From IMG/VR virus record IMGVR_UViG_3300037264_004886, positions 1-62,134 of that record: 62,134 nucleotides of DNA; one strand, given 5' to 3'. Source of the stretch: a virus. Taxonomy: Duplodnaviria; Caudoviricetes. Position numbers and translations under genes: made by a program. Shown here piece after piece: positions 4,452-50,436 of this stretch. Each line of letters opens with the position of its first letter. Position 1 is the first letter of the stretch. The notes below the pieces were generated by a model, which had not been told where the DNA came from, searched no databases, and saw nothing but the letters and a program-made list of their open reading frames with translations.

Positions 4452-4635
4452 ATCCTTACCTGCCAACAGGCTTGCCCAATATAACATTTCAAACGGTTTT
4501 TAGGACACGTCTTTTCTGTGCCTTTACATACGACACAATTCTTATTATTCAAAATCTCATTACTCATCAACTTACACCGATTAGTCATATTATGTAATGC
4601 GCTTTAATATGTATTAAAACTTTCTACAAAAAAAA

Positions 4636-5455: not shown

Positions 5456-5561
5456 TTACCAAACCTTACCCTTCCATACCAAACCTTACCATTCCATACC
5501 AAACCTTACCGTGACGCTCCGCACCCTGCCCGAACATACCGCAACCACATTTCGGTGTGGT
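5456..5561 (-). ncRNA. Orphan pentamer array (GGY+NN, 18 units) with terminal hairpin; candidate guide RNA
   Basis: Plus strand reads ttacc aaacc ttacc cttcc atacc ... gcaac, followed by hairpin ACCACAT-TTCG-GTGTGGT; TATA-like element at 5583-5590. Strand uncertain. Confidence 0.65.
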
Positions 5562-6861: not shown

Positions 6862-7706
6862 TAGAAATCCACGCTCCCCATCGTAGGCTTGTAATACAAT
6901 TCAAAGATGAACTTCGTATACAGTATATAAATCCCGACTTGAATTAATCCGAGAACGGCAAGCCCATATATGTTCGCCGTTCCATCGAGATTCCACACCA
7001 TCCACGGATATGTCAATCCCAACACCCCTGAAAACGCAACCAAACTTAACAGTAAAGTCAACATCAGTTTTAACGATGAAATCATCATATCCGTCATTAC
7101 TCCAAGAGTGCTGGCAATGCTCCCAAGCAACCCTCCAGAATTAGTAACTATCGGAATTTGTGTTTCTAATTTTACGTTGTCGTACTTCCATTCGTTTTCG
7201 GGTGTTGGTGCTGCATTACCTTCCCAAATATTCGTCATATTCACAACCCCAATCACCGTCTGTAACAGAATCATGAATATCATGAGGTTGACGATCATAC
7301 TGCCCGGACCCCCGACCCCGAACCGTTCCCGGAGAGAATCTTTCATGTAAATTGCCGATCCGAGAATAATACACACTACAATAACTCCCCAAGTCTGAAC
7401 CGGGTCGGGTCCACGCAACCACTCGAAGTATACAAACAGGGCGGCAAAAACGGGTATCAGCACAGCAAAGAACCGGGTGTTCCGGCTGGAACTGAGCGCT
7501 CCGAGCAGGAACAGAACCCCAATTGCTAAAAAGTTATAGTACATTGTAGCGTTCGCTGGCACGATGGTTTCCAGTCCGAGCGAGACCAGCCGGAACGCCC
7601 CGGTCATCGCCGCGTCCCGGGATGCCGACATATTGACTGCCGATGCCGGGACAACCATCATTAACGCTGTTAACGCCAGCAATTTTAGTTTAGACCCGAA
7701 CTGCAT
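6861..7706 (-). CDS. Multi-pass membrane protein
   Basis: Signal peptide and several TM segments; likely start MQFGSK at 7706. Confidence 0.65.
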   Translation of the reverse strand: MQFGSKLKLLALTALMMVVPASAVNMSASRDAAMTGAFRLVSLGLETIVPANATMYYNFLAIGVLFLLGALSSSRNTRFFAVLIPVFAALFVYFEWLRGPDPVQTWGVIVVCIILGSAIYMKDSLRERFGVGGPGSMIVNLMIFMILLQTVIGVVNMTNIWEGNAAPTPENEWKYDNVKLETQIPIVTNSGGLLGSIASTLGVMTDMMISSLKLMLTLLLSLVAFSGVLGLTYPWMVWNLDGTANIYGLAVLGLIQVGIYILYTKFIFELYYKPTMGSVDF

Positions 7707-22992: not shown

Positions 22993-25299
22993 TTACTTTT
23001 GTTTAATGATAACCATTGTTGGTTTATCATTTCCGGGTTTGGTTACACAGTGACAAACGATTTCTCCAGATTCCACAAGTGTCGCAAGAGCCTGATCTAA
23101 GTCTTTTTTGCCCAAATGTGTTTGTCTGAGCACCTTTGTCCGGTCCGCAACACCTCCAAAATGGTTTATTGCCTTCATCACAATCACTTGGTGGTTCTTA
23201 ATATCAAGACTATTGCATAGATCATATACGTACATAGTACGTGGTATTAAGTACTGCTCTACGATCTTGACTGCCATCTTTGCGTGTTTGTCTGGGATTT
23301 GAACTTTGATTGGATATGAAACGGCATTCAACACCTGGTGCTGGAACGATTTATCAAAAAAAGACAGAATGGTTGCTATTTTGTATGCGTGAACGAACCC
23401 CCGCGAAATTGCGGTCCTGAACGATTCATCTTCTTTTTCAAGTCTATCAGAAGTTATCTTTATTTTCCAATCTTCAATTATATCGCACACACCAAAAACA
23501 ATACTATCGTTTTGAAGAGGAGATAGAGATTCTCGTAACTTTTTTATATCGTTGTTTATTCCTGCCAAGATTTGTTTATCCGTTTCAGATACATTTTCAT
23601 TTTTGCGTGGTTGTCCACCTTGCCCCCAGAACCACATCAGTCTCGGGAAGAACCCGGATGAAAACAGCCTGGCGCTGGCAACCTGTTCGATATCTTTGGT
23701 TGTCGTATTGAATAACAACGACATAAACGGAAATGGACACTCCCATTTGAATTGTTCTCCGTTTTTAGACCGTTTGGAGAGCGTTCTACTAACCACGGTC
23801 CCATCGTAAATAGTACATAATGTCCCAAGAATGTGGGCGTTCCACGTTGTAATTTCGTCAAAAAAGCCACCACAATCGTCATAGTGCCAGAACGTATTAT
23901 ATGTGTCACTTAACCCCTGGATTAATGCGGGTTGACTGAACGTTCCCGTAATAACGTTTGTAGAGTAACATTTTGCTATCGGTTCTTCATAAATTATAGA
24001 ATGTTGGAACGCTTTGACTGCCATATTGCACGCTACAGACTTACCACTGATAGTTGTCTGACCGACAACCATTGCAAACACGTTGGGGTAAATGCTGACC
24101 ATTCCGACTTCGGCAACGGCTTTTCTGCCAATTGCCATTGAAGCAAGTGATAATAACGCGGCAAAATGAAACTCGTCTAATGAATATGAAACCCGCTTTC
24201 CAAAATCCATATACTCTTTAAAAATACCGTCGGTTAACTTTGGAAACGCCGGAAGCAAACATCTCTTTTTCGCCTCTTCAATTTCGGTTTTTAGTTCTGA
24301 TTCCGGTTTTGGTGTGAGTAATGTTTTTGTAATGGTTGCGCCGTGCTCAATGCTCTTTTCATATTCGGTTTTAACCCCAAGTTGATTGGCAGCTTCTTTC
24401 AAGGCTTTAATTACATCCCCGCCACATTCAAAATGGCAGAACATATCAAAAGCGTCGTGGCTTTTTGAACTGTCAAACGGTTCGGACCCGTGATGTGAGA
24501 ACATCCGGTTCTCTTGCGGGAAGATGTGAACTCCAGCAAGTCCGGTTGTACTGAACGGAGAAAGATACCGAGTAGGTGAAACTTTTTTATATCCGTTCCG
24601 TTCCAGAATAGAAGTTACAGATACGAACTCGTTAAATTTTTGAATTATATTATCGTTAGAAGAGTTGGTCGACGTTGTCTTTGATTTAGGTGGCGAAACT
24701 TTAATTTTTATCCACGGACAGGCGTTTACCAATTGTGGTCGGAACACACCCCATTCCGCCCAAATAGACAACAACTCTTTCGGTAGTGGGGGGATTTTGG
24801 TTGTAGGTTCTACAATCCATTCATACGGTTGGTGCGTGTCCGGGTGAATTGATGGCGGCAACACATCCTGAACCATCCCACCACGCAACTCAAAGACAGT
24901 GTGGGTTTTGGTCGGATCGTCTTTATCTTCCCACGACAACTTTTTGGTTGATAGTTCTATTATAGGGGGAGCTGAGAAGATTGCTTTGTCGTGCCCGGGT
25001 CTCCCTTTTATCCGGGGCGCACCTTTAAAAAGAATATCATATTCAATTCCAAACTCTTTTAAAAGCAGTTTTGTTTCGGTTATATTATCAATATCAACCA
25101 CAACAAGATTGGACGGTGCGAGCAATACACCCATATTATCAGACGTGTGCGTTTTCCAATACTCCGGTTTGGCAGTGTTCTCAACAGTGTTCCACCCGGG
25201 TGTTTTCGGTCCTTTTGTTCCGGGAGGTATTGGAACCAGATACCAGTTGAGTGATTGATATTGTTGTGCAGCTTCAAACGTAGATATCAAAGATATCAC
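22993..25299 (-). CDS. Bifunctional primase-polymerase fused to DUF3987-like helicase/ATPase domain
   Basis: PIPPGTKGP...NMGVL...VVDID...VLPPSIHP prim-pol motifs; C-terminal GQTTISGKS P-loop and SGFFPR. Confidence 0.8.
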   Translation of the reverse strand: MISLISTFEAAQQYQSLNWYLVPIPPGTKGPKTPGWNTVENTAKPEYWKTHTSDNMGVLLAPSNLVVVDIDNITETKLLLKEFGIEYDILFKGAPRIKGRPGHDKAIFSAPPIIELSTKKLSWEDKDDPTKTHTVFELRGGMVQDVLPPSIHPDTHQPYEWIVEPTTKIPPLPKELLSIWAEWGVFRPQLVNACPWIKIKVSPPKSKTTSTNSSNDNIIQKFNEFVSVTSILERNGYKKVSPTRYLSPFSTTGLAGVHIFPQENRMFSHHGSEPFDSSKSHDAFDMFCHFECGGDVIKALKEAANQLGVKTEYEKSIEHGATITKTLLTPKPESELKTEIEEAKKRCLLPAFPKLTDGIFKEYMDFGKRVSYSLDEFHFAALLSLASMAIGRKAVAEVGMVSIYPNVFAMVVGQTTISGKSVACNMAVKAFQHSIIYEEPIAKCYSTNVITGTFSQPALIQGLSDTYNTFWHYDDCGGFFDEITTWNAHILGTLCTIYDGTVVSRTLSKRSKNGEQFKWECPFPFMSLLFNTTTKDIEQVASARLFSSGFFPRLMWFWGQGGQPRKNENVSETDKQILAGINNDIKKLRESLSPLQNDSIVFGVCDIIEDWKIKITSDRLEKEDESFRTAISRGFVHAYKIATILSFFDKSFQHQVLNAVSYPIKVQIPDKHAKMAVKIVEQYLIPRTMYVYDLCNSLDIKNHQVIVMKAINHFGGVADRTKVLRQTHLGKKDLDQALATLVESGEIVCHCVTKPGNDKPTMVIIKQK

Positions 25300-27500: not shown

Positions 27501-28445
27501 ATGCCAGCACTGCCGCCAGAACCGAATAAAACCATCGATTTGCTTTATAAAAAGTACGAAGAGCGAAACGGCGATTGGAGACGTCCGCATCTCGGGGCGT
27601 CTCTGATTGGAAAACCGTGCAAGCGCGAAGTCTGGTATAACTTCCGATGGTGTTTAAACCCGAACTTTTCCGGGCGAATTTTGAGACTATTCCAAACCGG
27701 ATTTCGAGAAGAGGTGCGACTTGTTCAAGATTTGCGCGGTGCGGGTATTACCGTATACGACCGCGACCCGGAAACTGGCAAACAAATCCGTTACGAAAGT
27801 TTCGGGGGACACTATGCCGGAAGTCTGGACGGTATGGGGGTTGGATTCCCGGAAGCCGAAAAGTCCTGGCACGTGATCGAAGTAAAAACGGCAAACACCA
27901 AGACGTTTAACGCTCTGAAAAAACACGGGGTTGAAAAGACGAAACCGGAACATTACTATCAGACAATGCAGTATATGTCGTGGTCAAAAGCAGACCGGGC
28001 GTATTATTTCTGTGTCTGTAAAGAAACCGACGATATATATGCGGAGCGCATCTATTTCGACCAGAAAGTTGCTGATGACTTGGAACTAAAAGCAAATGAT
28101 ATTGTGTTTGCAGATTCCCCGCCCGAGAAGTTAGGAGATTCCGATAAATCGTTCGGGTGCAAGTTCTGTACCTACCGGGGTTTGTGTTGGGACCGAAAGT
28201 TACCCGAAGTTAACTGTCGGACGTGTGCTCATTCTGATGTTGTGATTGACGGTGGTTGGAAGTGTTGCCGAGACGGACACATCGTTTCAGTTACACAACA
28301 ACAGACTGGTTGTAACAACCACATATTCATCCCAAAACTTGTGCCGCTTGAAGTCACCGATGCAGACGAACACAAAGGAACCGTCACGTATGGGACGATA
28401 ACAAACGGACCGGGTGCGGTGTTAAGTAGGGATTTGAATGTCTGA
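27501..28445 (+). CDS. Cas4-like PD-(D/E)XK exonuclease
   Basis: RPHLGASLIGKPC, GSLDG, IEVKT, QTMQYM, CKFCTYRGLC. Confidence 0.8.
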   Translation: MPALPPEPNKTIDLLYKKYEERNGDWRRPHLGASLIGKPCKREVWYNFRWCLNPNFSGRILRLFQTGFREEVRLVQDLRGAGITVYDRDPETGKQIRYESFGGHYAGSLDGMGVGFPEAEKSWHVIEVKTANTKTFNALKKHGVEKTKPEHYYQTMQYMSWSKADRAYYFCVCKETDDIYAERIYFDQKVADDLELKANDIVFADSPPEKLGDSDKSFGCKFCTYRGLCWDRKLPEVNCRTCAHSDVVIDGGWKCCRDGHIVSVTQQQTGCNNHIFIPKLVPLEVTDADEHKGTVTYGTITNGPGAVLSRDLNV

Positions 28446-28836
28446 ATGGGCGAGACGACAAAGTTGGGTGAGGAGAAAACAAACCCGTTGGGAACAATAT
28501 AAAGGATCTCAATTGTGGTATAATTTAAAAGCCGAGGCGCTTAAATTTGCTGGAAACCGTTGTCAGAATAATGAAGAATGTGAACAATATAGATGTAAAA
28601 AAACAACACAATTGGAACTTCATCACGACAACTATCCAAATTGCCCAGAAAACGATGCGATCTCAAATGTTAGAATTTTGTGCCGGGATTGTCACGAAAA
28701 TTTTCATTATCATAACGGCATGTCGGATTGTATCCCTCCATCCATATCATTTATAAAAAGACAAGTAAAAGCAGATGCGGCTAAAAAATTTCTATCCAAA
28801 TATGAATTTACAACCGATGTGGAGAAACCACAATGA
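28438..28836 (+). CDS. HNH endonuclease
   Basis: LELHH...N.RILCRDCH. Confidence 0.7.
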   Translation: MSEWARRQSWVRRKQTRWEQYKGSQLWYNLKAEALKFAGNRCQNNEECEQYRCKKTTQLELHHDNYPNCPENDAISNVRILCRDCHENFHYHNGMSDCIPPSISFIKRQVKADAAKKFLSKYEFTTDVEKPQ

Positions 28837-30428
28837 TATTACGAGACTATCAAATCCGGGCGATTAAAGACCTGTATCAGTACTGGGAAGACGGTAAAGG
28901 GGTTACTCCGATTGTATGTTTACCAACCGGCTCTGGAAAAAGTTTGTTTGTCGCGGAATTTTGCAAACAAGTCTGTACCGAAACCCCACACGTCCGGATA
29001 ATGGTTGTAACTCATTCCCGCGAATTGATTTCCCAGAACGAACAGGAATTGAGAACCCACTACCCGGAAGCCAGCACGGGTATTTTTTCTGCGGGATTGG
29101 GAAAGTATCAGACCCACGCACAGATTATATTCGCCGGGATTCAATCGGTTTATAAACGGGTGTTCGGGTTTCCGAAGATTGATATTGTTATTATTGATGA
29201 GTGTCATTTAATTCCTCGGGAAGCAGAAACCCGATACGGTAGGTTCTTTACCGATTTGCGAATTTTCAATCCGAACGTGGTTATCTGGGGATGCACGGCA
29301 ACCCCGTTTCGGCTGGATTCCGGGTTGTTACACGAAGGTAAAGGAGCGCTGTTTGACGGAATTGCACACTGCACCAACATCAAAACACTTATCGACCAAA
29401 AGTATCTGGTCCCACCCATATCAAAAGGCGGGGTAAAGAAGATAGATTTAACCGGGGTGAAAATTCAAGCGGGAGATTACGCTCCCGGCGAACTGGCTCA
29501 TGCAGCTGACGACCCGGAACTGGTGAGACTTGCGGTTGAAGAGATTGTGCGGTTCGGACAAGACCGCAAAGCGTGGTTGATTTATTGTGCTGGGGTTGAA
29601 CACGCTGAACACGTTGCAGCCGAGTTTAAAAAACACGGAAAAGACTGTGCTATTGTAACTGGAGATACTCCTAAAGAAGAACGAGATGAAATACTATCCA
29701 AATTTAAAACCGGAACGATTCGGTGCGTTGCGAACGTGATGGTTTTAACGACCGGATTCAACGCACCCCGTTGTGATTTGATTGCGCTTCTTATGTCCAC
29801 AATGAGCACCGGGAAATACGTGCAGATCTGCGGGCGAGGGTTGCGAACGTATCCCGGGAAAGAGAACTGTCTGGTTCTGGACTTTGGCGGCAATATTTTA
29901 AGGCACGGTCCAATTGACGAAATAGATCCCGTTCGTAAAAAGAACGTGTTTTGTGTAGAAAAGAAACCACCCCCACAAAAGGAATGCCCACAATGCCACG
30001 CTATTGTGCCTGCAAGGACTTCTGTTTGTATTTGTGGGTACTTCTTTCCAGTAACCGCTCCGCATGGCACAGAAGCGTATTCTGGCGCAGTACTGTCAAA
30101 CCAACAAACCGTTGCAATAATAGAAGTCAAAGACGTTTGGTATAGCAGACACCAGAAACCGGGCAAACCGGATAGTGTAAAAATCGGATACTTTGATAGT
30201 ATGGACAAAGAATATCCGATGTGGTTGGCGTTGGATGCTGGGGGATATGCGTCCGATAAAGCGCAGGCACTTGTAAAACAACTGGGTGGGAAATCAACTA
30301 CCGTAACCGAATCATTGGCAGAGTGTGATTACTGGAAGAAACCAATTGCCATTCAAGTAAAACCAGAAGGCAAATTTACACGAATAACCGGGTTTATATT
30401 TGAAAAAGATAAACAAGGAGAACTATGA
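28833..30428 (+). CDS. SF2 DEAH helicase (RadD/YejH-like) with Zn ribbon
   Basis: LRDYQ, PTGSGKS, DECH, TATPFR, QICGRGLR. Confidence 0.9.
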   Translation: MILRDYQIRAIKDLYQYWEDGKGVTPIVCLPTGSGKSLFVAEFCKQVCTETPHVRIMVVTHSRELISQNEQELRTHYPEASTGIFSAGLGKYQTHAQIIFAGIQSVYKRVFGFPKIDIVIIDECHLIPREAETRYGRFFTDLRIFNPNVVIWGCTATPFRLDSGLLHEGKGALFDGIAHCTNIKTLIDQKYLVPPISKGGVKKIDLTGVKIQAGDYAPGELAHAADDPELVRLAVEEIVRFGQDRKAWLIYCAGVEHAEHVAAEFKKHGKDCAIVTGDTPKEERDEILSKFKTGTIRCVANVMVLTTGFNAPRCDLIALLMSTMSTGKYVQICGRGLRTYPGKENCLVLDFGGNILRHGPIDEIDPVRKKNVFCVEKKPPPQKECPQCHAIVPARTSVCICGYFFPVTAPHGTEAYSGAVLSNQQTVAIIEVKDVWYSRHQKPGKPDSVKIGYFDSMDKEYPMWLALDAGGYASDKAQALVKQLGGKSTTVTESLAECDYWKKPIAIQVKPEGKFTRITGFIFEKDKQGEL

Positions 30429-32179: not shown

Positions 32180-32737
32180 ATGACACCCGAAGAACTAAAA
32201 ACGATCTTAGAAAATCATTTGAAATGGCTGAATGATGAGCCGGATGGAGAGAAAGCCAACCTGAGTTCCGCCGACCTGAGTTTCGCCAACCTGAGTTCCG
32301 CCAACCTGCGTTTCGCCAACCTGAGTTCCGCCAACCTGAGTTCCGCCGACCTGCGTTCCGCCAACCTGAGTTCCGCCAACCTGCGTTTCGCCGACCTGAG
32401 TTTCGCCAACCTGAGTTCCGCCAACCTGAGTTCCGCCAACCTGCGTTTCGCCGACCTGAGTTTCGCCAACCTGAGTTCCGCCAACCTGAGTTCCGCCGAC
32501 CTGCGTTTCGCCAACCTGCGTTTCGCCAACCTGCGTTCCGCCGACCTTGATTTTTCTTCCGGGTTCTCGTTTCAATGTTCATCATTCGGTGCAAAAATCG
32601 ATATCCGGCTTGGAGCACAGTTAGCCTATCATTTCTGCCGCATGGACACGAATGATCCGGAGGTTCAGGCAGCACAACGGGCGATCAAGGATTTGGCAAA
32701 CAAGTTTCACCGTGTAAAAGAATGCGGGGAAATTTAA
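32180..32737 (+). CDS. Pentapeptide-repeat protein
   Basis: A(N/D)L(S/R)(S/F) repeats encoded by 15-bp tandem repeats at ~32254-32547. Confidence 0.9.
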   Translation: MTPEELKTILENHLKWLNDEPDGEKANLSSADLSFANLSSANLRFANLSSANLSSADLRSANLSSANLRFADLSFANLSSANLSSANLRFADLSFANLSSANLSSADLRFANLRFANLRSADLDFSSGFSFQCSSFGAKIDIRLGAQLAYHFCRMDTNDPEVQAAQRAIKDLANKFHRVKECGEI

Positions 32738-38501: not shown

Positions 38502-40373
38502 TTAAAAATCAAACGGGTTCTTCCCCCGGGGTTTATACCCTCGCGGAATCCCCACAACTTTCCCAAGTCCTTTAATCATCGGGTTCCGGGATATCCGAAT
38601 GTTAATATCACCGCTCTTACCTTTCTTTTTAGCAGGAGTGGTTGGTTTCTTTGGAGTGGGTTTCGGTCTTCGCTCTCCCAATCCTGCGAACGGGTCCCCG
38701 AACGCCCCTGCCCGTCCCAACCCCGCCAGCGGGTCCGGATGTGCTCCGCGCCTGGGTGCAATTCCACCCATGAAGTTGTCCATTCCCCCGGGCGATCCAC
38801 CGAAACTGCGAGGCGACGGCATATACGCTTTACCCGGGTTATACGACGGTGCTTTGAACGCACCCCGGCTCTCTTTGTTGGACCGCGGGCGACCGGGTGG
38901 GTTCGATTGGTGCGGCATTGCTTTTCGTAACCGTTGCTGCTGTTCGGCTTCGTGGATTTTGCGTTCCATCGCGGTATCTTTTGCCATACTACGCGCTTCT
39001 CTTTCTGCTGCTGTGGGCGCAACGGTTTTTCTGATGGTTTCTTTTACTCCAGTAACGAGTTTATCAGAAGTTTTACCGATTACCTGAACAGGTTTTGATT
39101 TTGCAAGTTGCTGTCCGGTCGACAACCCTTCTTTTACCTGGCGTTGCTGAGCGCGAATAGATCGCTGGTCGGCAATTTCTTTATCGATCTTACCTTGTGC
39201 CAGCGCGTCTTGAATTTCTTTGTTGCGCTTTACACGTTTCGCGTTCGCTTCGTCTGCTCTTTGCTGTGCTTGCATTTCAGATTCTTGCTGTGCCCGGTAC
39301 GCTGCCTCTTCGCGCTTTTCTTTGCTGTCTTCGAGTTTGTCTCTGATTGCATCCAGAAAACCCATCATCTACCCCCGTCTAAAGACGTTACTGTCCCGGG
39401 CGCTCGCAACCAGTCTCTTTGCGTCCGGTAGTGCAAGTGCTTTACCCTGTGCGTTCACGCCACGCATCCGCACCTGGGGGACTTTGATTTTCTGAACTTG
39501 TAGTTTGTTCCCGTCCGGTGCTTTGAATACAGTTTTCCATTTGTTGGTTAATGCTACCATTTTCTTTTACCTCCACATTTTTTTATGAAATGAAACCATC
39601 CCGCGTGAGCAGGGTTGGCGTTCGACATCCGACCAATCTTCGCTGTTCCCAACTTCTTTTGAAGAATAGTCTCGTTTCTCTCCAAACCAATATCTCGGGG
39701 TGGTTGACGACAACATTACGATCTCCCCCGTTTTTTTGTTTTGTTTAGATCGTTGAACTGGCATTCTCTACCTCCTCTTAGCTACATTCAGGGCGAAGTT
39801 CGCCCTGTATTTCGTCTTGGTGTCAATCACAACACCGCCCACCTGCCCGCCAATCGGTGTCTGTACGATTTGCCGGAGTAGACTGGTCGGCACGGGCGCT
39901 TGGTCGGAGATCCCGAACTGTGCTTTCAGCGCTCGCTGTTTCGGTAGGGACTTACCGGACCCGAACCCGAAGTTCGAGCCGCCCCCTCGCCCAAACATGT
40001 CGCCGGGAATGGGAGTCATGGCGACTTCGGGATTGCGTTCATCAGTCCAACGGCAATACCGCCAACCATACCGATTTTGGCGACATCCACGATTCCGTTT
40101 GCCAGGTTGTCCATCCCACCAGTCTGCGGTTTCATAGCGTATGGGTTCCTGCGTGCCGGTGCCGGTCTCGGGCGTCTCGGGACTTCAAATGGATCAGAGA
40201 AATCAAACGGGTTCCGCCGGTACGGGTTTTTGGGTCTTGTAGGGTTCTTCATAGTCTTTCTCCTTTTACACCGATAACTTTTCTGTCGGCGTGTTCAATC
40301 ATCTCATGCATTTTCTCTTTGCTGGGAATACCAATCCCATACGGATTGTACCGTTTTTCTTTAGGAATTTGCA
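38502..40373 (-). other. Operon of small basic/Pro-Gly-rich proteins (38502-39368, 39369-39560, 39567-39764, 39768-40019, 40016-40252, ~40249-40373); candidate nucleoproteins
   Basis: Coupled ORFs, K/R-rich; NPFDF motif in two; TTTATATA promoter at ~40397-40404. Confidence 0.55.
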
Positions 40374-40415
40374 TAGTTGCTAATGAGAATAGAAAATATA
40401 TAAAGGTTATGTATT

Positions 40416-40680
40416 CCCAACCCCCGGGTGTGAACCGGGGGTTGGGGGGATGTTGTGCTGACTTGTGTGGTGCTGTGTCGTGCCGTGTTGCGCGGTGTAG
40501 TGGCGTGTCGTGATGTGCCGTGCCGTGGCGTGTTGTGTTGAATCAAACTTTCACTACCTCGTTTGACCGAAGTAATGAAATGTTGTGCTGACTTGTGTGG
40601 TGCTGTGTCGTGCCGTGTTGCGCGGTGTAGTGGCGTGTCGTGATGTGCCGTGGCGTGGCGTGGTGTGCAGTGTCGTGGCG
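40416..40680 (-). ncRNA. Two CAC+NN pentamer arrays (20 and 18 units), each followed by a hairpin; candidate guide RNAs
   Basis: Strict 5-nt period; 73-bp identity between 40450-40522 and 40580-40652; hairpins at 40549-40580 (two G.U pairs on the minus strand) and 40416-40447. Confidence 0.75.
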
Positions 40681-40688
40681 AAAAAATT

Positions 40689-41180
40689 TTATGCTACTAT
40701 GGGGTTAGCTTCCGATATCTGAACCGACTTTTTCAGTCCGAACCGTTTTGCCATTCTTGCTTTTCCCAGTATAGCGTTTCCAACAGTTTTGTTGTTTTCA
40801 AATACATCTTTTGTGTATTGCGGTAGTTCTTCAGAATGGGTTGTTTCGAGGTTTGTAGTTGCTTTAACCATTCTGCGGGTGCTACCGATAATTCGTTCTG
40901 TTTTGTTCGATGCGATTGTAATAGAGTTTTCAACCGAACTTAAAATGTATCCGTAGTTCGGTTTGTTTAAACACTCTCTGCCCAACCGTTTGCACGCGGT
41001 ATAGAACATTCCGCGATTCGCACCGGCTTTGATATCAAAGCTAAGTTCTTCTTTCAGTTCTTTATATGTTACCTCTTCCCCGTTCTTTTTGGCAAGAAGA
41101 TACGCTTCGAGTTTGAGGGTCTCTTCCGATGGGGTAAAAGTTGGTTTCTTTTTGGGTTTTGAATCTTCAGTGTATTTCAT
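40689..41180 (-). CDS. Putative winged-helix-like accessory protein of the RAMP operon
   Basis: GEEVTYKEL...GYIL pattern; between the RAMP gene and the arrays. Confidence 0.5.
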   Translation of the reverse strand: MKYTEDSKPKKKPTFTPSEETLKLEAYLLAKKNGEEVTYKELKEELSFDIKAGANRGMFYTACKRLGRECLNKPNYGYILSSVENSITIASNKTERIIGSTRRMVKATTNLETTHSEELPQYTKDVFENNKTVGNAILGKARMAKRFGLKKSVQISEANPIVA

Positions 41181-41185
41181 GAAAA

Positions 41186-41743
41186 TCACTTCCATTTTAT
41201 TGAAGTGACTTCAAACCGTCCGAAGTATCCACGGTTCCGAACCCGGAACGCACCCAGACCGATCAGGTTCCCGGCAGTCATTAAGACCTCTTCAAAGATT
41301 TCTTTGGTAATCATATCGTCAAGAATGATTACATCGGTTGAACCTTTCCATGCGTCGATAGTTGGGAAATGCCGGGTTACCTTTGACTTTCCGCCGATTG
41401 TTCCGTCGGAAGAGCAACGAATAGAACTTTTCTTTACGTCGTTGATATTGATTCCGAGCGGCATGTGGTTCGTTACAAGAATACCGGATTCAAAATGTTT
41501 CGTCCACGTTTCATTGCGGCGCCCGGGGATCTTCTTGTTTAAGAATTTACACGCCTCTTTGATAGCAATCGCAATCGCCATTGGGGGGATTGTAACAATT
41601 CCGTCTGGATCTACGTGGGCTTTGTTTTTCCATGTTCGCTCTTCCCACGCATCGGGCTGTTCGCCGTCGAGTTTTGGGGTGTTGTGGTATCTGGACTGTG
41701 CGTATGCAGACAATGATTTCAGGGTGATTGTACATGTTCTCAT
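41186..41743 (-). CDS. Stand-alone Cas7/RAMP-like RNA-binding protein
   Basis: N-terminal beta strand (ITLKSLS), IPPMAIAIAIKEA (cf. IPGSSLKGALR), C-terminal Gly loop AGNLIGLGAFRVRNRGYFGRFEV. Confidence 0.75.
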   Translation of the reverse strand: MRTCTITLKSLSAYAQSRYHNTPKLDGEQPDAWEERTWKNKAHVDPDGIVTIPPMAIAIAIKEACKFLNKKIPGRRNETWTKHFESGILVTNHMPLGININDVKKSSIRCSSDGTIGGKSKVTRHFPTIDAWKGSTDVIILDDMITKEIFEEVLMTAGNLIGLGAFRVRNRGYFGRFEVTSIKWK

Positions 41744-41869
41744 TTACTTTCCTCCAGTTTTTCCATCATATCCACACGCTCTACACTTTACCGAACCGTC
41801 TTTTCGGAAATAGATTGTTTTCCGTTTGCAGTTCGGACAAACCGGGATTTTAGTATCCTGTGTTGTCAT
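41744..41869 (-). CDS. 41-aa Zn-ribbon protein, first gene of the RAMP operon
   Basis: Manual translation MTTQDTKIPVCPNCKRKTIYFRKDGSVKCRACGYDGKTGGK; TATA about 25 bp upstream; stop abuts the RAMP ATG. Confidence 0.65.
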   Translation of the reverse strand: MTTQDTKIPVCPNCKRKTIYFRKDGSVKCRACGYDGKTGGK

Positions 41870-41907
41870 ACAAAGAGATTGGTTGTATTTGCATTTATAT
41901 TTATTTG

Positions 41908-42627
41908 TTAGATAAGTTTCAAAACTTTAACCCCGATCATCATTATACAAATAAGTAAACTAAAAACCAATATATATATTCCATATTTATTTAAATCTTC
42001 TTGTTTCGTTTGCTCCGAAAGTTTCGCCAACTGCCGGGTGTAACCGGCGAACGCCCCCATACTTTTAGGCGAGAATGCGGATCTTATCCGCAACCACGGT
42101 ACTGTTATAGTGGAGTCTATCGGGCAGGTTATCATTCCGGCTTGTAATAGCGCCCCAAATCTCAGCAGCGTATGGATTTCATCCGTTCCTGGGTGTGCCT
42201 CATTCCAGATAGTTACCGCTTTATCAATCTCTTGTCGTGCAGGACTGTCAAGTTCTGTCCATCTATCAGCATCAAGTATTAAATCTGCGGTTGTTTTTCC
42301 GATCATTCCTGATGGTGAGTAGTCCCACACTTTCTGGGCTTTTTTAGCTTGTTCTGGAGTTTCATTGAATATAAGCTTCGCTTTTTTTTCGCTTTTCAAA
42401 ACAAAATTTAAATTTGAATCGAATGTAAATGCGACTTGTTCGTGTCTGATGGCAGCATAAAACAAACCCCAGAGCGGCTTCAACGGACTCCAAAAAAGTA
42501 CGTGCCATCCGACGTAAGAACCGACTGCGGCAATAGCTAGCGCCAAGATGATCCAGTAGTAAACTTGTAATCCGAGCGCCAGAGTATTTAGAACCCCGCC
42601 AAAAAGCAAAACGGGCATTTTAATCAA
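41908..42627 (-). CDS. Membrane protein (N- and C-terminal TM); probable paralogue of 43662-44453
   Basis: Same topology; AFTFDSN vs AFMFGKN. Confidence 0.6.
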   Translation of the reverse strand: MIKMPVLLFGGVLNTLALGLQVYYWIILALAIAAVGSYVGWHVLFWSPLKPLWGLFYAAIRHEQVAFTFDSNLNFVLKSEKKAKLIFNETPEQAKKAQKVWDYSPSGMIGKTTADLILDADRWTELDSPARQEIDKAVTIWNEAHPGTDEIHTLLRFGALLQAGMITCPIDSTITVPWLRIRSAFSPKSMGAFAGYTRQLAKLSEQTKQEDLNKYGIYILVFSLLICIMMIGVKVLKLI

Positions 42628-42633
42628 CTCCGT

Positions 42634-43533
42634 TTAACACCATGCAACACCTTCAATCCAGTTATTACAGATGATCTTTACAAGCAATTCCTGTAATATT
42701 CTATCCATCAATTTCGTGGGGATGCCGAGATCGTTTAGTTTTGTAATGTCAAGTTGGTATGCGTGTTCGAGTTGTCCATCTGTGAGGATGTTGGTTGCGG
42801 TTTCTAATTGTATCGGATCTGATATTTTTGATTCAAGTAATTTTGTCATGTCGGTTCGTATTGTTTTTGTGTATTGTTCTCCAACATAGGCAAACTGGAT
42901 TGAGGCATCGTTTGCTTTCCTACCCTTTTTCCGCAAAACTTCTTTCCACGACTTTGCAGAACCGTAACTAAATAACCCACCGAGCTGTGGATCAACCGGA
43001 CCAAGACACGCGAATGCCCCCATAAATAATTGATCACAACTTAATGCAAGTATTGTCCCACCGGACATTGCATAAAATGGAACGAATGCCCGCACTTCTG
43101 CCCCGTAACTTTTTATTGCTTTAGAAAGCAGTTGTGTGTAAAACACATATCCCCCCGGTGTGTGTAAGATGAGATCAAATGGTTTCCCTTTAAATGATTG
43201 AAATGCCCGCTCAAGTTTGTGGAGTGTGGTCAGGTCGATCATTGATTGAGAAAACAACCCGGATTCAGTGTGTTTTATAAGTATTGTGTTACGTCCGGTT
43301 ATATTCTTAAATTTACGTAGAATGTATTTGACGTATAGATTTCCTATGATTGGTTTGATATATCCATCCCACATAAGCACAATCACAAAGAACGCCGAAA
43401 TTAAAGTAATAAGCATTAAAATAAGATATTGCGTCCATTCGGTAGTTGCCAGTACATTTACTTGTAATGGTATTCCCCCAGAACTCCGGGTGGCGTTGAT
43501 TATTGTCAGTATGTCTGCCGTTTCAAGTGTCAT
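42634..43533 (-). CDS. SDH/ClpP-crotonase-family serine protease, membrane anchored
   Basis: DLILHTPGG, VPFYAMSGGTILAL, LGPVDPQ. Confidence 0.85.
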   Translation of the reverse strand: MTLETADILTIINATRSSGGIPLQVNVLATTEWTQYLILMLITLISAFFVIVLMWDGYIKPIIGNLYVKYILRKFKNITGRNTILIKHTESGLFSQSMIDLTTLHKLERAFQSFKGKPFDLILHTPGGYVFYTQLLSKAIKSYGAEVRAFVPFYAMSGGTILALSCDQLFMGAFACLGPVDPQLGGLFSYGSAKSWKEVLRKKGRKANDASIQFAYVGEQYTKTIRTDMTKLLESKISDPIQLETATNILTDGQLEHAYQLDITKLNDLGIPTKLMDRILQELLVKIICNNWIEGVAWC

Positions 43534-45712: not shown

Positions 45713-46075
45713 TCATTCCCCCCGGTCCATATACTTGAACGAATCATCAATCAGTTGTCCATATCCTCCGTGAACAAGTTCGCCCATGTGGTCTAATACG
45801 TGAGCACACACGAAATTGGAAGTCTCCCACTTCCCTACTTTATATAAGTTTTCGGCGTTCATACACAACCCCACACATTCGTCAAAGATTGGTTTGAACT
45901 CATCAAACTCCCCTGTAAGTTTCGATGCAATGATGAGTGCGGATACCAGGTTGCGAGTGTTCCCGGGTTTCCGGGACGGATCGATTCCGCGAGCGTTGAC
46001 ATAATGTGCCCCGATCTCCATTCGCAACTGCGTATTGATCTTTTTCTTTCTTTCTTCAAATGTTAAAAGCGCCAT
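45713..46075 (-). CDS. Hypothetical protein
   Basis: Overlaps the ATPase 3' end. Confidence 0.55.
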   Translation of the reverse strand: MALLTFEERKKKINTQLRMEIGAHYVNARGIDPSRKPGNTRNLVSALIIASKLTGEFDEFKPIFDECVGLCMNAENLYKVGKWETSNFVCAHVLDHMGELVHGGYGQLIDDSFKYMDRGE

Positions 46076-47228
46076 GTTTCACCGCGTGTTTACTCTTCTT
46101 TAATCGTATTTTCAGTTTGCCGAGAATGTCCAAACAGAGTTTCTGGTGGATTCCGAGATACGACGCCAGTCTTGCAACATTCGTATTCGGTTCGTCTGCG
46201 ATAAACTTCTGAATTTCAAGTTCGTATTTCATCGCCTGGTCTGCTACGTTCTGTTCGTGGAGGGTTGGACCTTCCCGCACTTTGTGTTTTGGTTTTGGTT
46301 TCTGCACCGGGTTCCGGAACGTCCCGGTCTCTACAATGCGTTTGTTGACGTCTAACGCAGATTGTTCGCGCTGTTTGTCGTATCCGACAATTAGTTCGGT
46401 TGGAGGTTTTAATGAAACCCAGAAATCTATTTTCCGTTTACCAAAACCCATACGACGGTTATACTCTTTCCCCAAAAACCCAATTTCAGATGAGTTGACT
46501 TTAACTAAATTGAATCCTCCAGCGTGAAACGATTTGTAGATGCTCATTGTAATATCGCACATTTCACGGACTTGGTTGTCGACGTGTTTTTTTAACGGAG
46601 CTGTGAGTAACAATATCCAGCGGTTCGTCCGGGCAACCGTCATTAACGCATTGAAGTTTCGGTTCTGTGGTGAGTTCCAACTTCGGTTACTGACTGCTAA
46701 ACTACAATCATCCACAATTACAATCTGATACTTTCCGGCATCCTTTAAAATTTGCATTACTCGGTCGGTATCTTCGAGGGTAGCGACGTGATTTAATGAA
46801 AAGTAATCTTTCCAATCTCCCCCCAACACTTTTGCAATTTCGTGTGCGATTCGATATGCAATCCACAACGCCGTATACGATTTCCCAGAACCTCGCCTGC
46901 CTTGAATGAATATGATTAAGTCCTGCCGGTCTGTACCAGTAACCCGTTTCGCCGCCCAGATACAGAACGGAGAATCTGGAACCGGGATTTGTTGTTTTTG
47001 GATCTCGGTTACATAGTTCGCCATTCGTTTAATGGCGCCTGGAGTAGCCGGACCCAAATCTATCAACCCGGTAATCCCGGGCACCCACGGGATGACTACT
47101 GGCGGAGGAGGGGGTGGTTTTGGAAACATCACGTCGTAATCATATTCTTCTACGGGCGCCGGGGCGATCTCTACGCCAATCTCTCCGTCATCTACGATTG
47201 GTTGATCTTCTATGTCGTCTTCCGTCAC
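46056..47228 (-). CDS. Zot-like / packaging-type P-loop ATPase
   Basis: GRRGSGKS, IVIVDD, R...ILLLTAP...VDNQVRE (Zot-like D..(I/V)R); C-terminal HTH-like segment. Confidence 0.75.
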   Translation of the reverse strand: MTEDDIEDQPIVDDGEIGVEIAPAPVEEYDYDVMFPKPPPPPPVVIPWVPGITGLIDLGPATPGAIKRMANYVTEIQKQQIPVPDSPFCIWAAKRVTGTDRQDLIIFIQGRRGSGKSYTALWIAYRIAHEIAKVLGGDWKDYFSLNHVATLEDTDRVMQILKDAGKYQIVIVDDCSLAVSNRSWNSPQNRNFNALMTVARTNRWILLLTAPLKKHVDNQVREMCDITMSIYKSFHAGGFNLVKVNSSEIGFLGKEYNRRMGFGKRKIDFWVSLKPPTELIVGYDKQREQSALDVNKRIVETGTFRNPVQKPKPKHKVREGPTLHEQNVADQAMKYELEIQKFIADEPNTNVARLASYLGIHQKLCLDILGKLKIRLKKSKHAVKHGAFNI

Positions 47229-48557: not shown

Positions 48558-49241
48558 ATGGTTGCCGGTAAATGTTCTGATCCTATAAAAGAAGCAGAGC
48601 GCATTCGTAAAATGGCAGAAACAAAGCGTTCGCAACATAGGCGTGTCGTTCATTCAGAAGAAGCACGCAAAAAAATGTCGGAAGCTAATTTGGGTGTGAA
48701 ACACCATCAATATGGAAAGCCGATTTCTGATGAAGTAAAACAAAAAATATCAATAACAATGTCTGGTCGTAAACGTCCGCAAAGATCCCCCGAATGGTGT
48801 CGTAAAATATCAGAGGGGCATAAAGGTAAACGACATACAATGGAAACCCGCATGAAAATGTCTAAAGCTCAACTTGGAGAAAAAGCAAAGTTGTGGAAAG
48901 GGGGATTGTCTTATGGCTTGTATTGCAAAGATGCAAAACCGTCTTATAAGCGAGTCCGTGCATATTTCAGTCATTGTTGTGTTAGGTGTGGTCAACCACA
49001 AACAAAAGAAAAATTGTGTGTGCATCATGTAGATTATGATAAAGAAGCCGGTTGTAAAGGAAAGAAATTTTGGGCTGTAACTCTGTGTCGTTCGTGTCAT
49101 ACTGAAACCAACAACAACCGCGAATATTGGGAATCACAATTCAAAGAAATGATAACGAATTATTATGGTGGGAAATGTATGCTAACCGAACAAGAGTTTA
49201 AAGATTTATATTCGGTGATTCCGGATGTTATCACCCAATAA
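48558..49241 (+). CDS. NUMOD3-repeat HNH endonuclease
   Basis: HSEEARKKMSEA repeats; CVRC...LCVHHVDYDK...LCRSCH...N. Confidence 0.75.
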   Translation: MVAGKCSDPIKEAERIRKMAETKRSQHRRVVHSEEARKKMSEANLGVKHHQYGKPISDEVKQKISITMSGRKRPQRSPEWCRKISEGHKGKRHTMETRMKMSKAQLGEKAKLWKGGLSYGLYCKDAKPSYKRVRAYFSHCCVRCGQPQTKEKLCVHHVDYDKEAGCKGKKFWAVTLCRSCHTETNNNREYWESQFKEMITNYYGGKCMLTEQEFKDLYSVIPDVITQ

Positions 49242-50436
49242 GCACCTCCTCAATACAGACGTTCTCACAGCAGCTCGTGGTAGGATCTCCTGGATGTTCG
49301 ACACATTTGAGCGGGTGTGCGTAAGTTTCTCTGGGGGAAAAGACTCTTCGGTAATGTTTCACCTGGTAATGGAAGAGGCAATAAAGCGGGACCGTGTTGT
49401 TGGTGTTATGTTTGTAGATTGGGAAGTCCAGTTTACGCATACGATAGAGCACGTCCAGAAAATGTTTGATTTGTATAAAGAACATATTGAACCGTACTGG
49501 ATTGCGCTTCCGTTCAGGACAGAGAACTGCACCAGTATGTTTGAACCGGAGTGGATTTGTTGGGAGCCGGGTAAGAAGTGGGTTCGGGATGTGCCAGCAT
49601 CGGGAATAAATGATTACAAGCAGTTCCCGTTTTATACGTATCCGATGACGTTTGAAGAGTTTGTTCCGAAGTTTGGACAATGGTATAGTGACGGAAAATT
49701 AACTGCGGTGGTTGTTGGGATTCGGGCGGACGAATCGTTGCATCGATATAGCACGATAACATCACAGACCAAAACGCGGTTTGAGGATAAGGGATACACT
49801 ACACAACTGTCTGATAATGTGTATAACGTGTATCCGATTTACGATTGGAAAACTACCGACGTGTGGACGTATAACGGCAAGTATAATCGGTTATCAAACC
49901 CGCTGTATACGCTTATGTACCGTGCAGGGGTTCCGCTTCATAATATGCGAGTTGACGAACCGTTTGGTGAGAAACAGCGGAAGGGATTGTGGTTATACCA
50001 CATTTTAGATCCGATAATGTGGGCAAAAATAGTAGAGAGAATAAACGGTGCGAACTTCGGGGCGTTATACGTAAAAGAGCGGGGAAACATTCTTGGGAAT
50101 TACGGAGTAACAAAACCGGAGAGCCACACGTGGAAATCGTATGCAGAGTTGTTGTTAAATTCTATGCCAATAAAAACGGCGGAACACTATAAAAACAAAA
50201 TTGCTGTATACTTGCGATGGTATCAGGTACGTGACTATCCTGTGGGGATACCGGATTATCAGGACAACGATGTCGGTCCGAAAGATGCATATCCGAGTTG
50301 GAGGCGGGTTTGTAAGATTCTGTTACGGAATGATTACTGGTGTAAAGGATTGTCGTTCAGTGTCCAGAAATCTTCGGCAACAGAAAAATATTTGAAACTA
50401 ATGAAAATCAGGAGAGAACTATGGAATCTGATTTAA
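49225..50436 (+). CDS. ibrA: IbrA/YbdN-like PAPS-reductase-family protein (DUF3440)
   Basis: VSFSGGKDS, GIRADESLHR, YPIYDW, PSWRRVCK.LLRNDYWC. Confidence 0.85.
   Translation: MLSPNKHLLNTDVLTAARGRISWMFDTFERVCVSFSGGKDSSVMFHLVMEEAIKRDRVVGVMFVDWEVQFTHTIEHVQKMFDLYKEHIEPYWIALPFRTENCTSMFEPEWICWEPGKKWVRDVPASGINDYKQFPFYTYPMTFEEFVPKFGQWYSDGKLTAVVVGIRADESLHRYSTITSQTKTRFEDKGYTTQLSDNVYNVYPIYDWKTTDVWTYNGKYNRLSNPLYTLMYRAGVPLHNMRVDEPFGEKQRKGLWLYHILDPIMWAKIVERINGANFGALYVKERGNILGNYGVTKPESHTWKSYAELLLNSMPIKTAEHYKNKIAVYLRWYQVRDYPVGIPDYQDNDVGPKDAYPSWRRVCKILLRNDYWCKGLSFSVQKSSATEKYLKLMKIRRELWNLI

What the first reader, a model, noticed from the sequence alone, without database searches (positions are those of the whole stretch)
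40416..41869. Solo Cas7/RAMP-like gene coupled to pentamer-repeat RNA arrays: candidate non-CRISPR RNA-guided system
Seen: a compact operon (Zn-ribbon, 185-aa RAMP-like protein with Cas7/Csm3-type Gly loop, wHTH-like gene) is followed within 10 bp by non-coding arrays with a strict 5-nt period (constant CAC plus variable NN), each ending in a hairpin. There is no cas1/2/5/6/8/10 and no repeat-spacer array. Known: Cas7 proteins polymerise along guide RNA at a fixed nucleotide period. Inference: each subunit binds one constant triplet and displays NN for target pairing, probably against rival viruses or host genes. From memory this resembles recently reported viral 'VIPR' systems (RAMP plus GGY/NN RNAs), which should be verified; a CAC-code version in an archaeal virus may be a new variant.
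Basis: partly seen in the sequence, partly recalled or inferred. Interest (0 to 1): 0.95.

Follow-up and report, generated by a model that had tools for sequence, protein, structure and literature searches.

The report
VIPR system with CAC-repeat guide RNAs
A sediment virus carries a small RNA-guided gene-silencing kit of the recently described VIPR kind, whose guide RNAs are built on the repeat CAC-NN rather than the usual GGY-NN, a variant that a 2026 preprint has already noted by computation.

Summary
On the minus strand lie a 41-aa Zn-ribbon gene, a 185-aa gene, a 163-aa gene and, 11 nt later, two arrays of 19 and 17 pentamers (constant CAC, free NN). Each array ends in a 12-13 bp hairpin. 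The pattern gives 22 matches against 0 in shuffles.

The 185-aa protein is a Vipr. A profile of it hits the solved SUSP1 Vipr at E 8.5e-11, and its model (pLDDT 95) matches Cas7/Csm3. The 163-aa protein is a winged-helix Vap-like partner.

Relatives carry period-5 tracts beside the gene in 67 of 80 viral loci. The fixed triplet always reads xxC on the gene's strand: GGC, CGC, GAC, CAC, GTC or CTC. The four close relatives that reach far enough all have CAC-NN arrays with different NN.

It is not a new kind: VIPR is described in three 2026 preprints, and CAC/NN and GAC/NN arrays beside Vipr-like folds are named in a fourth.

No target was found, transcription is only hinted at, and an archaeal host is not shown. 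Added here: the tail hairpins, a clade-specific Zn-ribbon gene, and two Vipr residues that track the triplet.

The parts
41744..41869 (-). 41-aa Zn-ribbon gene (CPxC...CxxC), abutting the vipr start
   Evidence: ORF. Zn-ribbon Pfam matches are below their cut-offs. Homologous ORFs lie directly upstream of vipr in 7 close relatives (L082-L088) and the window. No homologue was found in the 80 more distant viral loci; 4 of them have unrelated CxxC ORFs at that place.
41186..41743 (-). vipr: 185-aa RAMP protein with G-loop at residues 158-177 and a predicted beta-hairpin thumb around residues 104-129
   Evidence: Profile against PDB: SUSP1 Vipr, E 8.5e-11. AF2 model pLDDT 95.2. Foldseek: type VII Cas7, Csm3 and Cmr4, E 9e-9 to 1e-5. 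PHROG 4652, E 4.8e-10. 82 homologues found.
40689..41180 (-). vap-like accessory gene: 163 aa, N-terminal winged helix plus a long helical hairpin
   Evidence: Gene call P0083. 218 representatives at E<=1e-3. AF2 model pLDDT 93.3 with H-S-H-H-S-S order followed by two long helices. Foldseek matches are weak and mostly to wHTH-type DNA-binding regulators, best 1ku9 at E 2.7e-3. The profile hits 60 of 88 related loci on the vipr strand, and 50 of the 80 with enough DNA have it directly downstream of vipr.
40583..40677 (-). vrRNA 1 repeat tract: 19 pentamers, CAC-NN (17 strict, then GUC-AG and CAC-AA)
   Evidence: A 157-nt contig of an RNA library is identical to 40557-40707; this is a weak hint of transcription only.
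40549..40580 (-). vrRNA 1 tail hairpin: 13-bp stem with 2 G.U pairs, loop GUCAAA
   Evidence: Fold of 40538-40600: minus strand -19.9 kcal/mol (z -6.0), plus strand -9.1 (z -0.2). Same architecture with different stems in relatives.
40538..40548 (-). linker between the hairpin and the next array, ending in ..UUCAA; similar linkers (GUAUUCAA / GUAUCCGA) in relatives
40453..40537 (-). vrRNA 2 repeat tract: 17 pentamers; the last 13 units are identical to those of vrRNA 1
40416..40446 (-). terminal G+C-rich hairpin: 12-bp stem, loop UUCACAC. It may serve as the vrRNA 2 tail, as a terminator of the viral backbone, or both.
   Evidence: Fold: -27.2 kcal/mol, z -4.5. One 131-nt contig of another run joins this hairpin to sequence like that upstream of the Zn-ribbon gene.

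Best explanation
This is a VIPR (Viral Interference Programmable Repeat) cassette in a 62-kb virus record from sediment. It comprises a Zn-ribbon gene, vipr, a winged-helix vap-like gene, and two guide RNAs (vrRNAs) read from the same strand.

By homology with the solved SUSP1 system, I infer the following. One Vipr protomer binds each pentamer. It buries the constant triplet (here CAC rather than GGY) and presents the two free bases. The filament of about 17-19 protomers then reads double-stranded DNA in an NN-skip-NN-skip register and silences a competing mobile element, helped by the DNA-binding Vap.

Each vrRNA ends in the units ..CAC-AA-CA followed by a 12-13 bp hairpin. That hairpin takes the place of the SUSP1 pseudoknot tail.

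Shown here: protein homology and fold, array anatomy, strand, conservation of the cassette, hypervariable NN and tail covariation among relatives.

Inferred only: transcription and processing, RNP assembly, the one-base skip rule, DNA rather than RNA as target, silencing as the outcome, and any role of the Zn-ribbon protein.
For: Protein:
- Single-sequence search against PDB puts SUSP1 Vipr first (E 0.015). The 54-sequence profile gives E 8.5e-11 over the thumb-to-G-loop half.
- The G-loop aligns. R167 matches SUSP1 R179, the contact of base 3, and is invariant in all 57 labelled relatives.
- The model has pLDDT 95.2. Its best structural matches are Cas7-family backbone subunits.

Arrays:
- 22 matches against 0 expected.
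- Over 156 units of the CAC clade, information is 1.81, 1.85 and 1.83 bits at positions 1-3 and 0.16 and 0.08 bits at positions 4-5. All 16 dinucleotides occur.

Relatives:
- 67 of 80 IMG/VR loci have period-5 tracts near the gene.
- Strict runs with variable NN gave a label to 58 of 89 loci: GGC 21, CGC 12, GAC 10, CAC 6, GTC 5, CTC 3, ACC 1. The triplet always ends in C on the gene's sense strand. The 21 GGC loci are the canonical GGY.
- Of 8 close relatives (65-85% identity), the 4 that reach past vap all have 2-4 CAC-NN arrays with other NN.

Strand:
- The array 1 tail folds only on the minus strand.
- 9 tail hairpins (7 distinct) have unbroken 12-13 bp stems of unrelated sequence, an invariant closing G-C pair, UCA in the loop, and 7 G.U pairs among the distinct ones.

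Partner genes:
- The vap profile hits 60 of 88 loci on the vipr strand.

Published mechanism:
- Discovery preprint 10.64898/2026.04.26.720920 (Results, Discussion and two Methods sections read).
- Structure preprint 10.64898/2026.04.26.720927 (two Results sections read).
Against: - No target was found. The guides score no better than order-shuffled guides against the window and 88 related loci.
- Exact NNx patterns found 0 hits in viral contigs three times. The 19 and 17 hits of shorter patterns are close to my rough estimates of chance (these rest on an assumed collection size, which I guessed for the viral contigs), and none extends: best 26 of 38.
- The skip rule could not be tested for this clade. 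116 unique guides from 47 loci gave no signal over shuffles, and skips of 0, 1 and 2 were alike.
- Three SUSP1 contact residues are not kept: D177 aligns with A165, R138 with F126, W178 with F166. How CAC is held is therefore unknown.
- The arrays have 17-19 units; 9-16 are published.
- Evidence for RNA is one contig in an RNA library. That cannot show strand, ends or even transcription.
- An oligo-T run lies between the vap stop and array 1. If the host is archaeal, it could end the operon transcript there.
- The two guides are near-duplicates.
Confidence: 0.8

Rival explanations
1. A VIPR-like RNP forms but works differently from SUSP1. The skip length may differ, the target may be RNA as for type III or VII Cas7, or the outcome may be something other than silencing, perhaps involving the Zn-ribbon protein.
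For: - The closest solved folds are RNA-targeting Cas7 subunits of types VII and III.
- The SUSP1 residues that hold G1 and G2 are replaced.
- No NNx target was found.
- An extra conserved gene is specific to this clade.
Against: - Sequence homology is to Vipr itself.
- The partner is a winged-helix protein of the kind the discovery preprint reports for DNA-binding vap genes.
- Failure to find targets is expected when only exact patterns can be scanned and the competitor may not be in the collections.
Confidence: 0.13
2. The arrays are read from the plus strand as GUG-NN RNAs, antisense to the operon.
For: G-rich triplets resemble GGY more than CAC does. The terminal hairpin folds on both strands.
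Against: - The array 1 tail folds at z -6.0 on the minus strand and z -0.2 on the plus strand.
- The 7 G.U pairs in the distinct tail stems would be C.A mismatches on the other strand.
- In all 58 labelled loci the triplet ends in C on the gene's sense strand. Where it is canonical it reads GGC there, never GCC.
Confidence: 0.04
3. The pentamer tracts act as DNA (iterons, protein-binding or bent DNA for the winged-helix protein), not as guide RNAs.
For: A DNA-binding protein is encoded next to them. No RNA ends are known.
Against: - Binding sites would conserve sequence. Here two of five positions are free and all 16 dinucleotides occur.
- The stems covary with G.U pairs.
- The neighbouring protein is homologous to one that was co-purified and solved with such RNAs.
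Confidence: 0.03

Closest known systems
Type II VIPR of Escherichia phage SUSP1 and a Pseudomonas fulva prophage (preprints 10.64898/2026.04.26.720920 and ...720927; PDB 36pp)
   Same: - Small RAMP protein with G-loop and thumb.
- A vipr-vap two-gene core with a DNA-binding vap.
- Tandem pentamers with three fixed and two hypervariable bases, followed by a structured 3' tail.
- Several vrRNAs in a row downstream of the genes.
- A viral genome with no cas genes or CRISPR array.
   Different: - The fixed triplet is CAC, not GGY.
- 17-19 units rather than 9-16.
- The tail is a plain 12-13 bp hairpin with a (G/U)UCA loop rather than a pseudoknot. A loop-to-flank pairing is possible in the window but is not conserved in relatives.
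- D177, R138 and W178 are replaced by A, F and F.
- There is an extra Zn-ribbon gene.
- Sequence similarity needs a profile to become significant.
Non-canonical VIPR-like clusters (GAC/NN, CAC/NN, WGT/NN, TGH/NN) in preprint 10.64898/2026.10.21.760802
   Same: A fixed CAC triplet alternating with NN, about 10 or more repeats, next to a protein with a Vipr-like fold. This locus most likely belongs to such a cluster.
   Different: That work is a computational survey; I read passages only, and its figures and supplements were not visible. In those passages I saw no account of tails, strand, accessory genes or protein residues that go with the triplet. Whether this very clade is among its 21 clusters cannot be told.
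Class 1 CRISPR backbone subunits (Cas7 of type VII, Csm3, Cmr4)
   Same: RRM core, G-loop and thumb. The known function is polymerising along a guide RNA at a fixed period (Foldseek E 9e-9 to 1e-5, TM about 0.5-0.6).
   Different: Sequence identity is 9-20%. There is no crRNA repeat-spacer array and no Cas5, Cas6, Cas10 or Cas11 partner. The period is 5 with 2 read bases rather than 6 with 5 read bases. The Pfam RAMP family does not match.

Membership tests
VIPR system | Vipr protein: homologue of the described Vipr RAMP | tested here: met
   The profile of 54 homologues hits the SUSP1 Vipr chain 36pp_D at E 8.5e-11. As a single sequence it is the top hit at E 0.015.
VIPR system | RAMP fold with RRM core, glycine-rich loop and thumb | tested here: met
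   AF2 model pLDDT 95.2. 165 PDB chains match at E<=0.001; the listed top matches are nearly all Cas7-family subunits. The G-loop G158..G175 is invariant in the family. The thumb is read from the model's beta-hairpin, which is inference.
VIPR system | Adjacent tandem pentanucleotide repeats with a fixed triplet and hypervariable NN | tested here: met
   Relatives.
VIPR system | Fixed triplet is GGY, or a related consensus given in the discovery preprint (NNNGG, YNNNG, NNNNG) | tested here: not met
   The triplet is CAC in 32 of 36 units in register in the window, and C, A and C each fill 152-153 of 156 units in the clade. It contains no G. CAC/NN is, however, listed as a non-canonical VIPR pattern in preprint 10.64898/2026.10.21.760802.
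VIPR system | Invariable, structured 3' tail after the repeats | tested here: met
   12-13 bp hairpins follow the arrays in the window, L082, L085, L086 and L087: 9 found, 7 distinct, with covarying stems. The form differs from the SUSP1 pseudoknot. One array (L082 array 2) has a degenerate stem.
VIPR system | vap accessory gene beside vipr | tested here: met
   A 163-aa winged-helix protein. Its family sits on the vipr strand in 60 of 88 related loci. Identity with one of the published vap1-6 could not be tested, because no vap sequence was at hand.
VIPR system | vrRNAs are expressed and bound by Vipr | not testable with these tools
   The only data are one RNA-library contig identical to 40557-40707, which shows neither strand nor ends.
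VIPR system | Targets follow the NN + one skipped base rule | tested here: inconclusive
   No target above chance in local DNA, viral contigs or genome contigs. Only exact patterns could be scanned in the collections.
VIPR type (I-VII) | Placement in the published Vipr phylogeny and vap class | not testable with these tools
   The type definitions rest on figures and data files that I could not see. The clade is distant from type II SUSP1.
CRISPR-Cas class 1 | Repeat-spacer array and cas gene set (Cas1/2 and the effector genes Cas5, 6, 8, 10 or 11) | tested here: not met
   No Cas1, no Pfam RAMPs, no CRISPR-like array. Only 21 ORFs were scanned, and the record is about 73% complete.

The most novel reading that the evidence does not exclude
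The fixed triplet of vrRNAs may be a fast-evolving identity tag that co-evolves with two Vipr positions, so that related viruses run mutually orthogonal VIPR systems that rivals' solo vrRNAs cannot hijack.

Evidence from the tree: among 88 Vipr relatives the triplet label changes at least 35 times.

Evidence from distinct proteins:
- The G-loop residue aligned with window A165 (SUSP1 D177) is Arg in 25 of 25 proteins whose triplet has G at position 2, but in only 2 of 15 with A there (otherwise S, F, A, M, V or Q).
- The thumb-base residue aligned with S111 is Pro in 29 of 29 proteins with G at position 1, but in only 5 of 19 with C there (otherwise N or S).

The CAC clade, with its own Zn-ribbon gene, would be a separate VIPR type. 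The orphan GGU-like pentamer array at 5458-5547 in the same virus would be a solo guide aimed at a rival's canonical Vipr.

Caveat: the test on independent pairs had only 3 and 1 well-supported pairs and reached no significance.
Probability: 0.3. Interest if true: 0.7.

Novelty: new member of a known kind. Interest (0 to 1): 0.4.

Why it matters
VIPR is a newly described, very compact way of RNA-guided DNA recognition. This locus is a clean natural example in which the protein-held scaffold triplet contains no guanine at all.

It also comes with about 58 relatives that between them use six different triplets. Together they suggest which protein positions set the scaffold code. If that holds up at the bench, several VIPR systems could run side by side without cross-talk. 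It would also help explain how rival viruses avoid having their Vipr captured by foreign guides.

As a discovery of a kind of system it adds nothing: both the kind and the CAC variant are already in preprints.

Tried and rejected
- Target hunts under the 1-nt-skip rule all ended at chance level.
  - The window's two guides against the window plus 88 loci, with skips 0-3 and order-shuffled controls.
  - Exact NNx patterns of 20-22 specified bases in viral contigs, three times with 0 hits.
  - 18 specified bases in genome contigs: 19 hits against a rough estimate of about 17 by chance. The best extension was 26 of 38.
  - 16 specified bases in viral contigs: 17 hits, in the range of a rough estimate that rests on a guessed collection size. 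The best extension was 25 of 38.
  - 116 unique guides from 47 related loci against all local DNA: skips 0, 1 and 2 and the shuffles were alike.
- Complex prediction of Vipr with the Zn-ribbon protein gave no verdict (score 0.00). It counts neither for nor against binding.
- Rfam: nothing relevant in 40200-42000, and in particular no hammerhead between the arrays.
- Pfam gave nothing for Vipr or Vap. A PDB profile search for Vap gave nothing credible.
- tblastn of Vipr against 50,697 phage records found no match.
- Host assignment was not settled. The TATA-like motif count was small. The named primase homologues are bacterial.
- A possible pseudoknot between the array 1 hairpin loop and the linker was dropped, because relatives do not keep it.
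- In RNA run X5, the parts of the stretch outside 40533-40736 had no cover. That is no evidence of silence.
Full report
**What is there**

All parts lie on the minus strand:
- a 41-aa ORF with two CxxC pairs (41869..41744);
- a 185-aa ORF that abuts it (41743..41186);
- a third ORF, 168 aa from the first ATG, held in the protein collection as a 163-aa product from 41180 to 40689.

Eleven bases after its stop codon a tract of pentamers begins (first CAC at 40677). In register it reads 17 strict CAC-NN units, then GUC-AG and CAC-AA, then CA and a hairpin (40580..40549). After an 11-nt linker comes a second tract of 15 strict units with the same last two units (40537..40453). A G+C-rich hairpin follows at 40446..40416. 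The last 13 units of the two tracts are identical, so the second is a recent duplicate of the first with different 5' units.

**Is it more than chance?**

- Tandem Repeats Finder calls period 5 at both tracts.
- A lag-5 scan of the 62-kb window finds four tracts in all, two of them these.
- Six CAC-NN units with at most one mismatch match 22 times, only here and only on the minus strand. No match occurred in any of 100 dinucleotide-preserving shuffles.

**The 185-aa protein**

- Pfam gives nothing. PHROG 4652, of unknown function, matches at E 4.8e-10.
- The protein has 82 homologues at E<=1e-3 among 123 candidates. Those above 64% identity come from metagenome sources only.
- Against all PDB sequences the single protein's best hit is 'SUSP1 Vipr protein' (36pp_D, E 0.015). 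A profile of 54 homologues raises this to E 8.5e-11 over the thumb-to-G-loop half.
- The AlphaFold model is confident (pLDDT 95.2, pTM 0.87). Its best Foldseek matches are Cas7 of type VII, Csm3 and Cmr4 (E 9e-9 to 1e-5, TM about 0.5-0.6).
- The Foldseek library ends on 8 April 2026, and no Vipr chain appeared in the matches.

**The literature**

Three preprints describe VIPR.
- 10.64898/2026.04.26.720920 (Results, Discussion and two Methods sections read). It describes a small RAMP protein (Vipr), an accessory gene (vap), and vrRNAs of 9-16 GGY-NN pentamers with a structured 3' tail. It reports recognition of double-stranded DNA through the NN with one skipped target base, and seven types. 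Alternative repeats are given as NNNGG, YNNNG and NNNNG.
- 10.64898/2026.04.26.720927 (two Results sections and found passages read). One protomer binds per repeat. G1 is held by H17 and D177, G2 by R138 and W178, and Y3 by R179 and a narrow pocket.
- 10.64898/2026.10.15.759431 (passages). It covers satellites and solo vrRNAs that compete for Vipr.

A fourth preprint, 10.64898/2026.10.21.760802 (passages), reports that 21 of 99 period-5 clusters carry other fixed triplets, 'e.g. GAC/NN or CAC/NN', beside Vipr-like folds. Searches for further work found only these four.

**Relatives**

A scan of viral contigs found 226 loci that encode relatives, of which 80 were kept (42-49% identity).
- 67 of the 80 have period-5 tracts near the gene.
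- I then required strict runs of at least 5 units with variable NN within 3 kb. This labelled 58 of 89 loci (the window included): GGC 21, CGC 12, GAC 10, CAC 6, GTC 5, CTC 3, ACC 1.
- Every label ends in C on the gene's sense strand. The commonest is the canonical GGY. This fixes the orientation of the arrays and shows that the family is VIPR by its RNAs too.
- 31 loci got no label. Some have tracts that fail the strict rule, and some contigs end too early.

A metagenome scan gave 8 close relatives (65-85% identity). On the tree they form one clade with the window (8 rows, SH-aLRT 99; L088, a partial protein, was left out of the tree).
- The four that extend past the third gene (L082, L085, L086, L087) carry 4, 3, 3 and 2 CAC-NN arrays there, with different NN.
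- Over 156 units of this clade, positions 1-3 carry 1.81, 1.85 and 1.83 bits and positions 4-5 carry 0.16 and 0.08 bits. All 16 dinucleotides occur.

**Strand and tails**

- The stretch after array 1 folds at -19.9 kcal/mol (z -6.0) on the minus strand and at -9.1 (z -0.2) on the plus strand.
- In the clade I found 9 hairpins directly after arrays, 7 of them distinct. They have unbroken stems of 12-13 bp whose sequences are unrelated, an invariant closing G-C pair, UCA in a 6-7 nt loop, and 7 G.U pairs among the distinct ones.
- This is compensatory change on the sense strand.
- One array (L082, second) has a degenerate stem. Two arrays of L086 were not caught by the strict search.
- Between a hairpin and the next array stands a short, similar linker (..UAUUCAA / ..UAUCCGA / ..UGAUUCAA).
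- Rfam finds no known RNA here.

**The other two genes**

The 163-aa protein has 218 representatives at E<=1e-3 in the large library.
- Its model (pLDDT 93.3) is a winged helix followed by two long helices.
- Foldseek gives only weak matches, mostly to winged-helix-type DNA-binding regulators, best E 2.7e-3.
- A profile of the family hits 60 of 88 related loci, always on the vipr strand. In 50 of the 80 loci with enough DNA it lies directly downstream of vipr.
- This is the vipr-vap pair of the discovery preprint. Which vap class it is cannot be told.

The Zn-ribbon ORF is found directly upstream of vipr in the window and in 7 close relatives (L082-L088). No homologue appears in the 80 distant loci, where 4 unrelated CxxC ORFs turn up at that place. 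A complex prediction with Vipr gave no verdict.

The genes flanking the cassette are not shared with the close relatives, though the relatives' contigs are short.

**How CAC may be read**

The SUSP1 contacts of G1 and G2 are replaced here: D177 aligns with A165, R138 with F126, W178 with F166. R179 aligns with R167, which is invariant in 57 of 57 labelled relatives. This agrees with C at position 3 in every triplet.

Across distinct proteins (48 rows):
- Residue 165 is Arg in 25 of 25 with G at triplet position 2, in 6 of 8 with T, and in 2 of 15 with A.
- Residue 111 is Pro in 29 of 29 with G at position 1 and in 5 of 19 with C.

The triplet label changes at least 35 times on the tree. However, the tree is poorly resolved (18 of 71 inner branches starred). 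The independent-pair test had only 3 and 1 pairs on supported branches and no power. This is a lead, not a result.

**Targets and expression**

No target was found by any route.

The record is a linear virus record, about 73% complete, from a sediment metagenome.
- In a metatranscriptome library of another study, one 157-nt contig is identical to 40557-40707. That is array 1 with the start of its tail. Nothing was laid on the protein genes.
- Contigs cannot show transcription, strand or ends, so this is a hint only.
- DNA contigs 90-99% alike in a freshwater-sediment run cover parts of vipr and vap.

**Host**

The host is unknown.
- The nearest named Vipr homologue is from a Thorarchaeota MAG (50% identity). 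Two others are cyanobacterial.
- Named homologues of the primase-helicase are bacterial.
- No capsid or terminase family was recognised among the 21 ORFs scanned.

**Verdict**

That exception is itself already in print as a non-canonical VIPR pattern.

The locus is therefore a new member of a known kind. It carries some new detail: hairpin tails with covariation, a clade-specific Zn-ribbon gene, and candidate residues for the scaffold code.

The figures and supplements of the four preprints were not visible to me. They may already show some of this, in particular the logos of types I and III-VII and of the non-canonical clusters.

Noticed in passing
window 5458-5561: A second, orphan pentamer array lies 35 kb from vipr, in the gap between two minus-strand genes. 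It has 18 units.

On the plus strand it reads ACC-NN (variants TCC, GAC, GCC, AAC) and is followed by a 6-bp hairpin at 5544-5561. An AT-rich TATA-like stretch lies about 20 nt upstream.

On the minus strand it reads GGU-NN (with GGA, GGC, GUU and GUC units), which is close to the canonical GGY-NN. Eleven of the units form a 20-nt repeat of about 2.7 copies.

It could be a solo vrRNA for another Vipr, an iteron, or something else. The strand is not settled, and no target was found above shuffles.
   Followed up: partly
window 40380-40447 joined to sequence like 41889-41911: One 131-nt DNA contig of a freshwater-sediment run continues from the terminal hairpin straight into sequence resembling that upstream of the Zn-ribbon gene. 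A related virus may therefore lack the whole cassette, and the hairpin may belong to the backbone. A second contig diverges at 40451 into unrelated sequence (loose ends). These are single contigs, and no joint was listed by the tool.
   Followed up: no
L068 and L076 (upstream of vipr, about 700 nt), L050, L070: Some relatives carry very long guide sets: 80 strict CGC-NN units in 7 consecutive tracts upstream of vipr (L068, L076), 70 GAC units (L050) and 55 GGC units (L070), on both sides of the gene.
   Followed up: no
L028, L051, L069/L071; L036, L057: Vipr proteins that sit close together on the tree use different fixed triplets: CGC, GGC and GAC in one group of four rows, and CAC-like and CGC in a sister pair. 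In L036 the middle base of the triplet is itself variable (CnC).
   Followed up: partly
window 27501-28445 (+): A Cas4-domain (PD-(D/E)XK) exonuclease, PHROG 1990 at E 9.5e-93. It is the only Cas-type domain seen in the record. Such nucleases are, as I recall, common in viruses; it is not next to the VIPR cassette.
   Followed up: no
window 32255-32547: A 15-nt tandem repeat of 19.5 copies with 89% matches, inside overlapping long ORFs on both strands. It was not examined.
   Followed up: no
whole window: The virus has no recognisable capsid, portal or terminase among the 21 ORFs scanned.

Recognised genes:
- a Prim-Pol/DUF3987 primase-helicase (22993-25299);
- a superfamily-2 helicase (28833-30428);
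- a PAPS-reductase/DUF3440 protein (49225-50436);
- a Zot-like P-loop ATPase (46056-47228);
- a ClpP-like SDH protease (42634-43533);
- a NUMOD3 protein (3387-4487);
- a 1585-aa PKD/lectin-domain protein (7690-12447).

No tRNA was found.
   Followed up: partly
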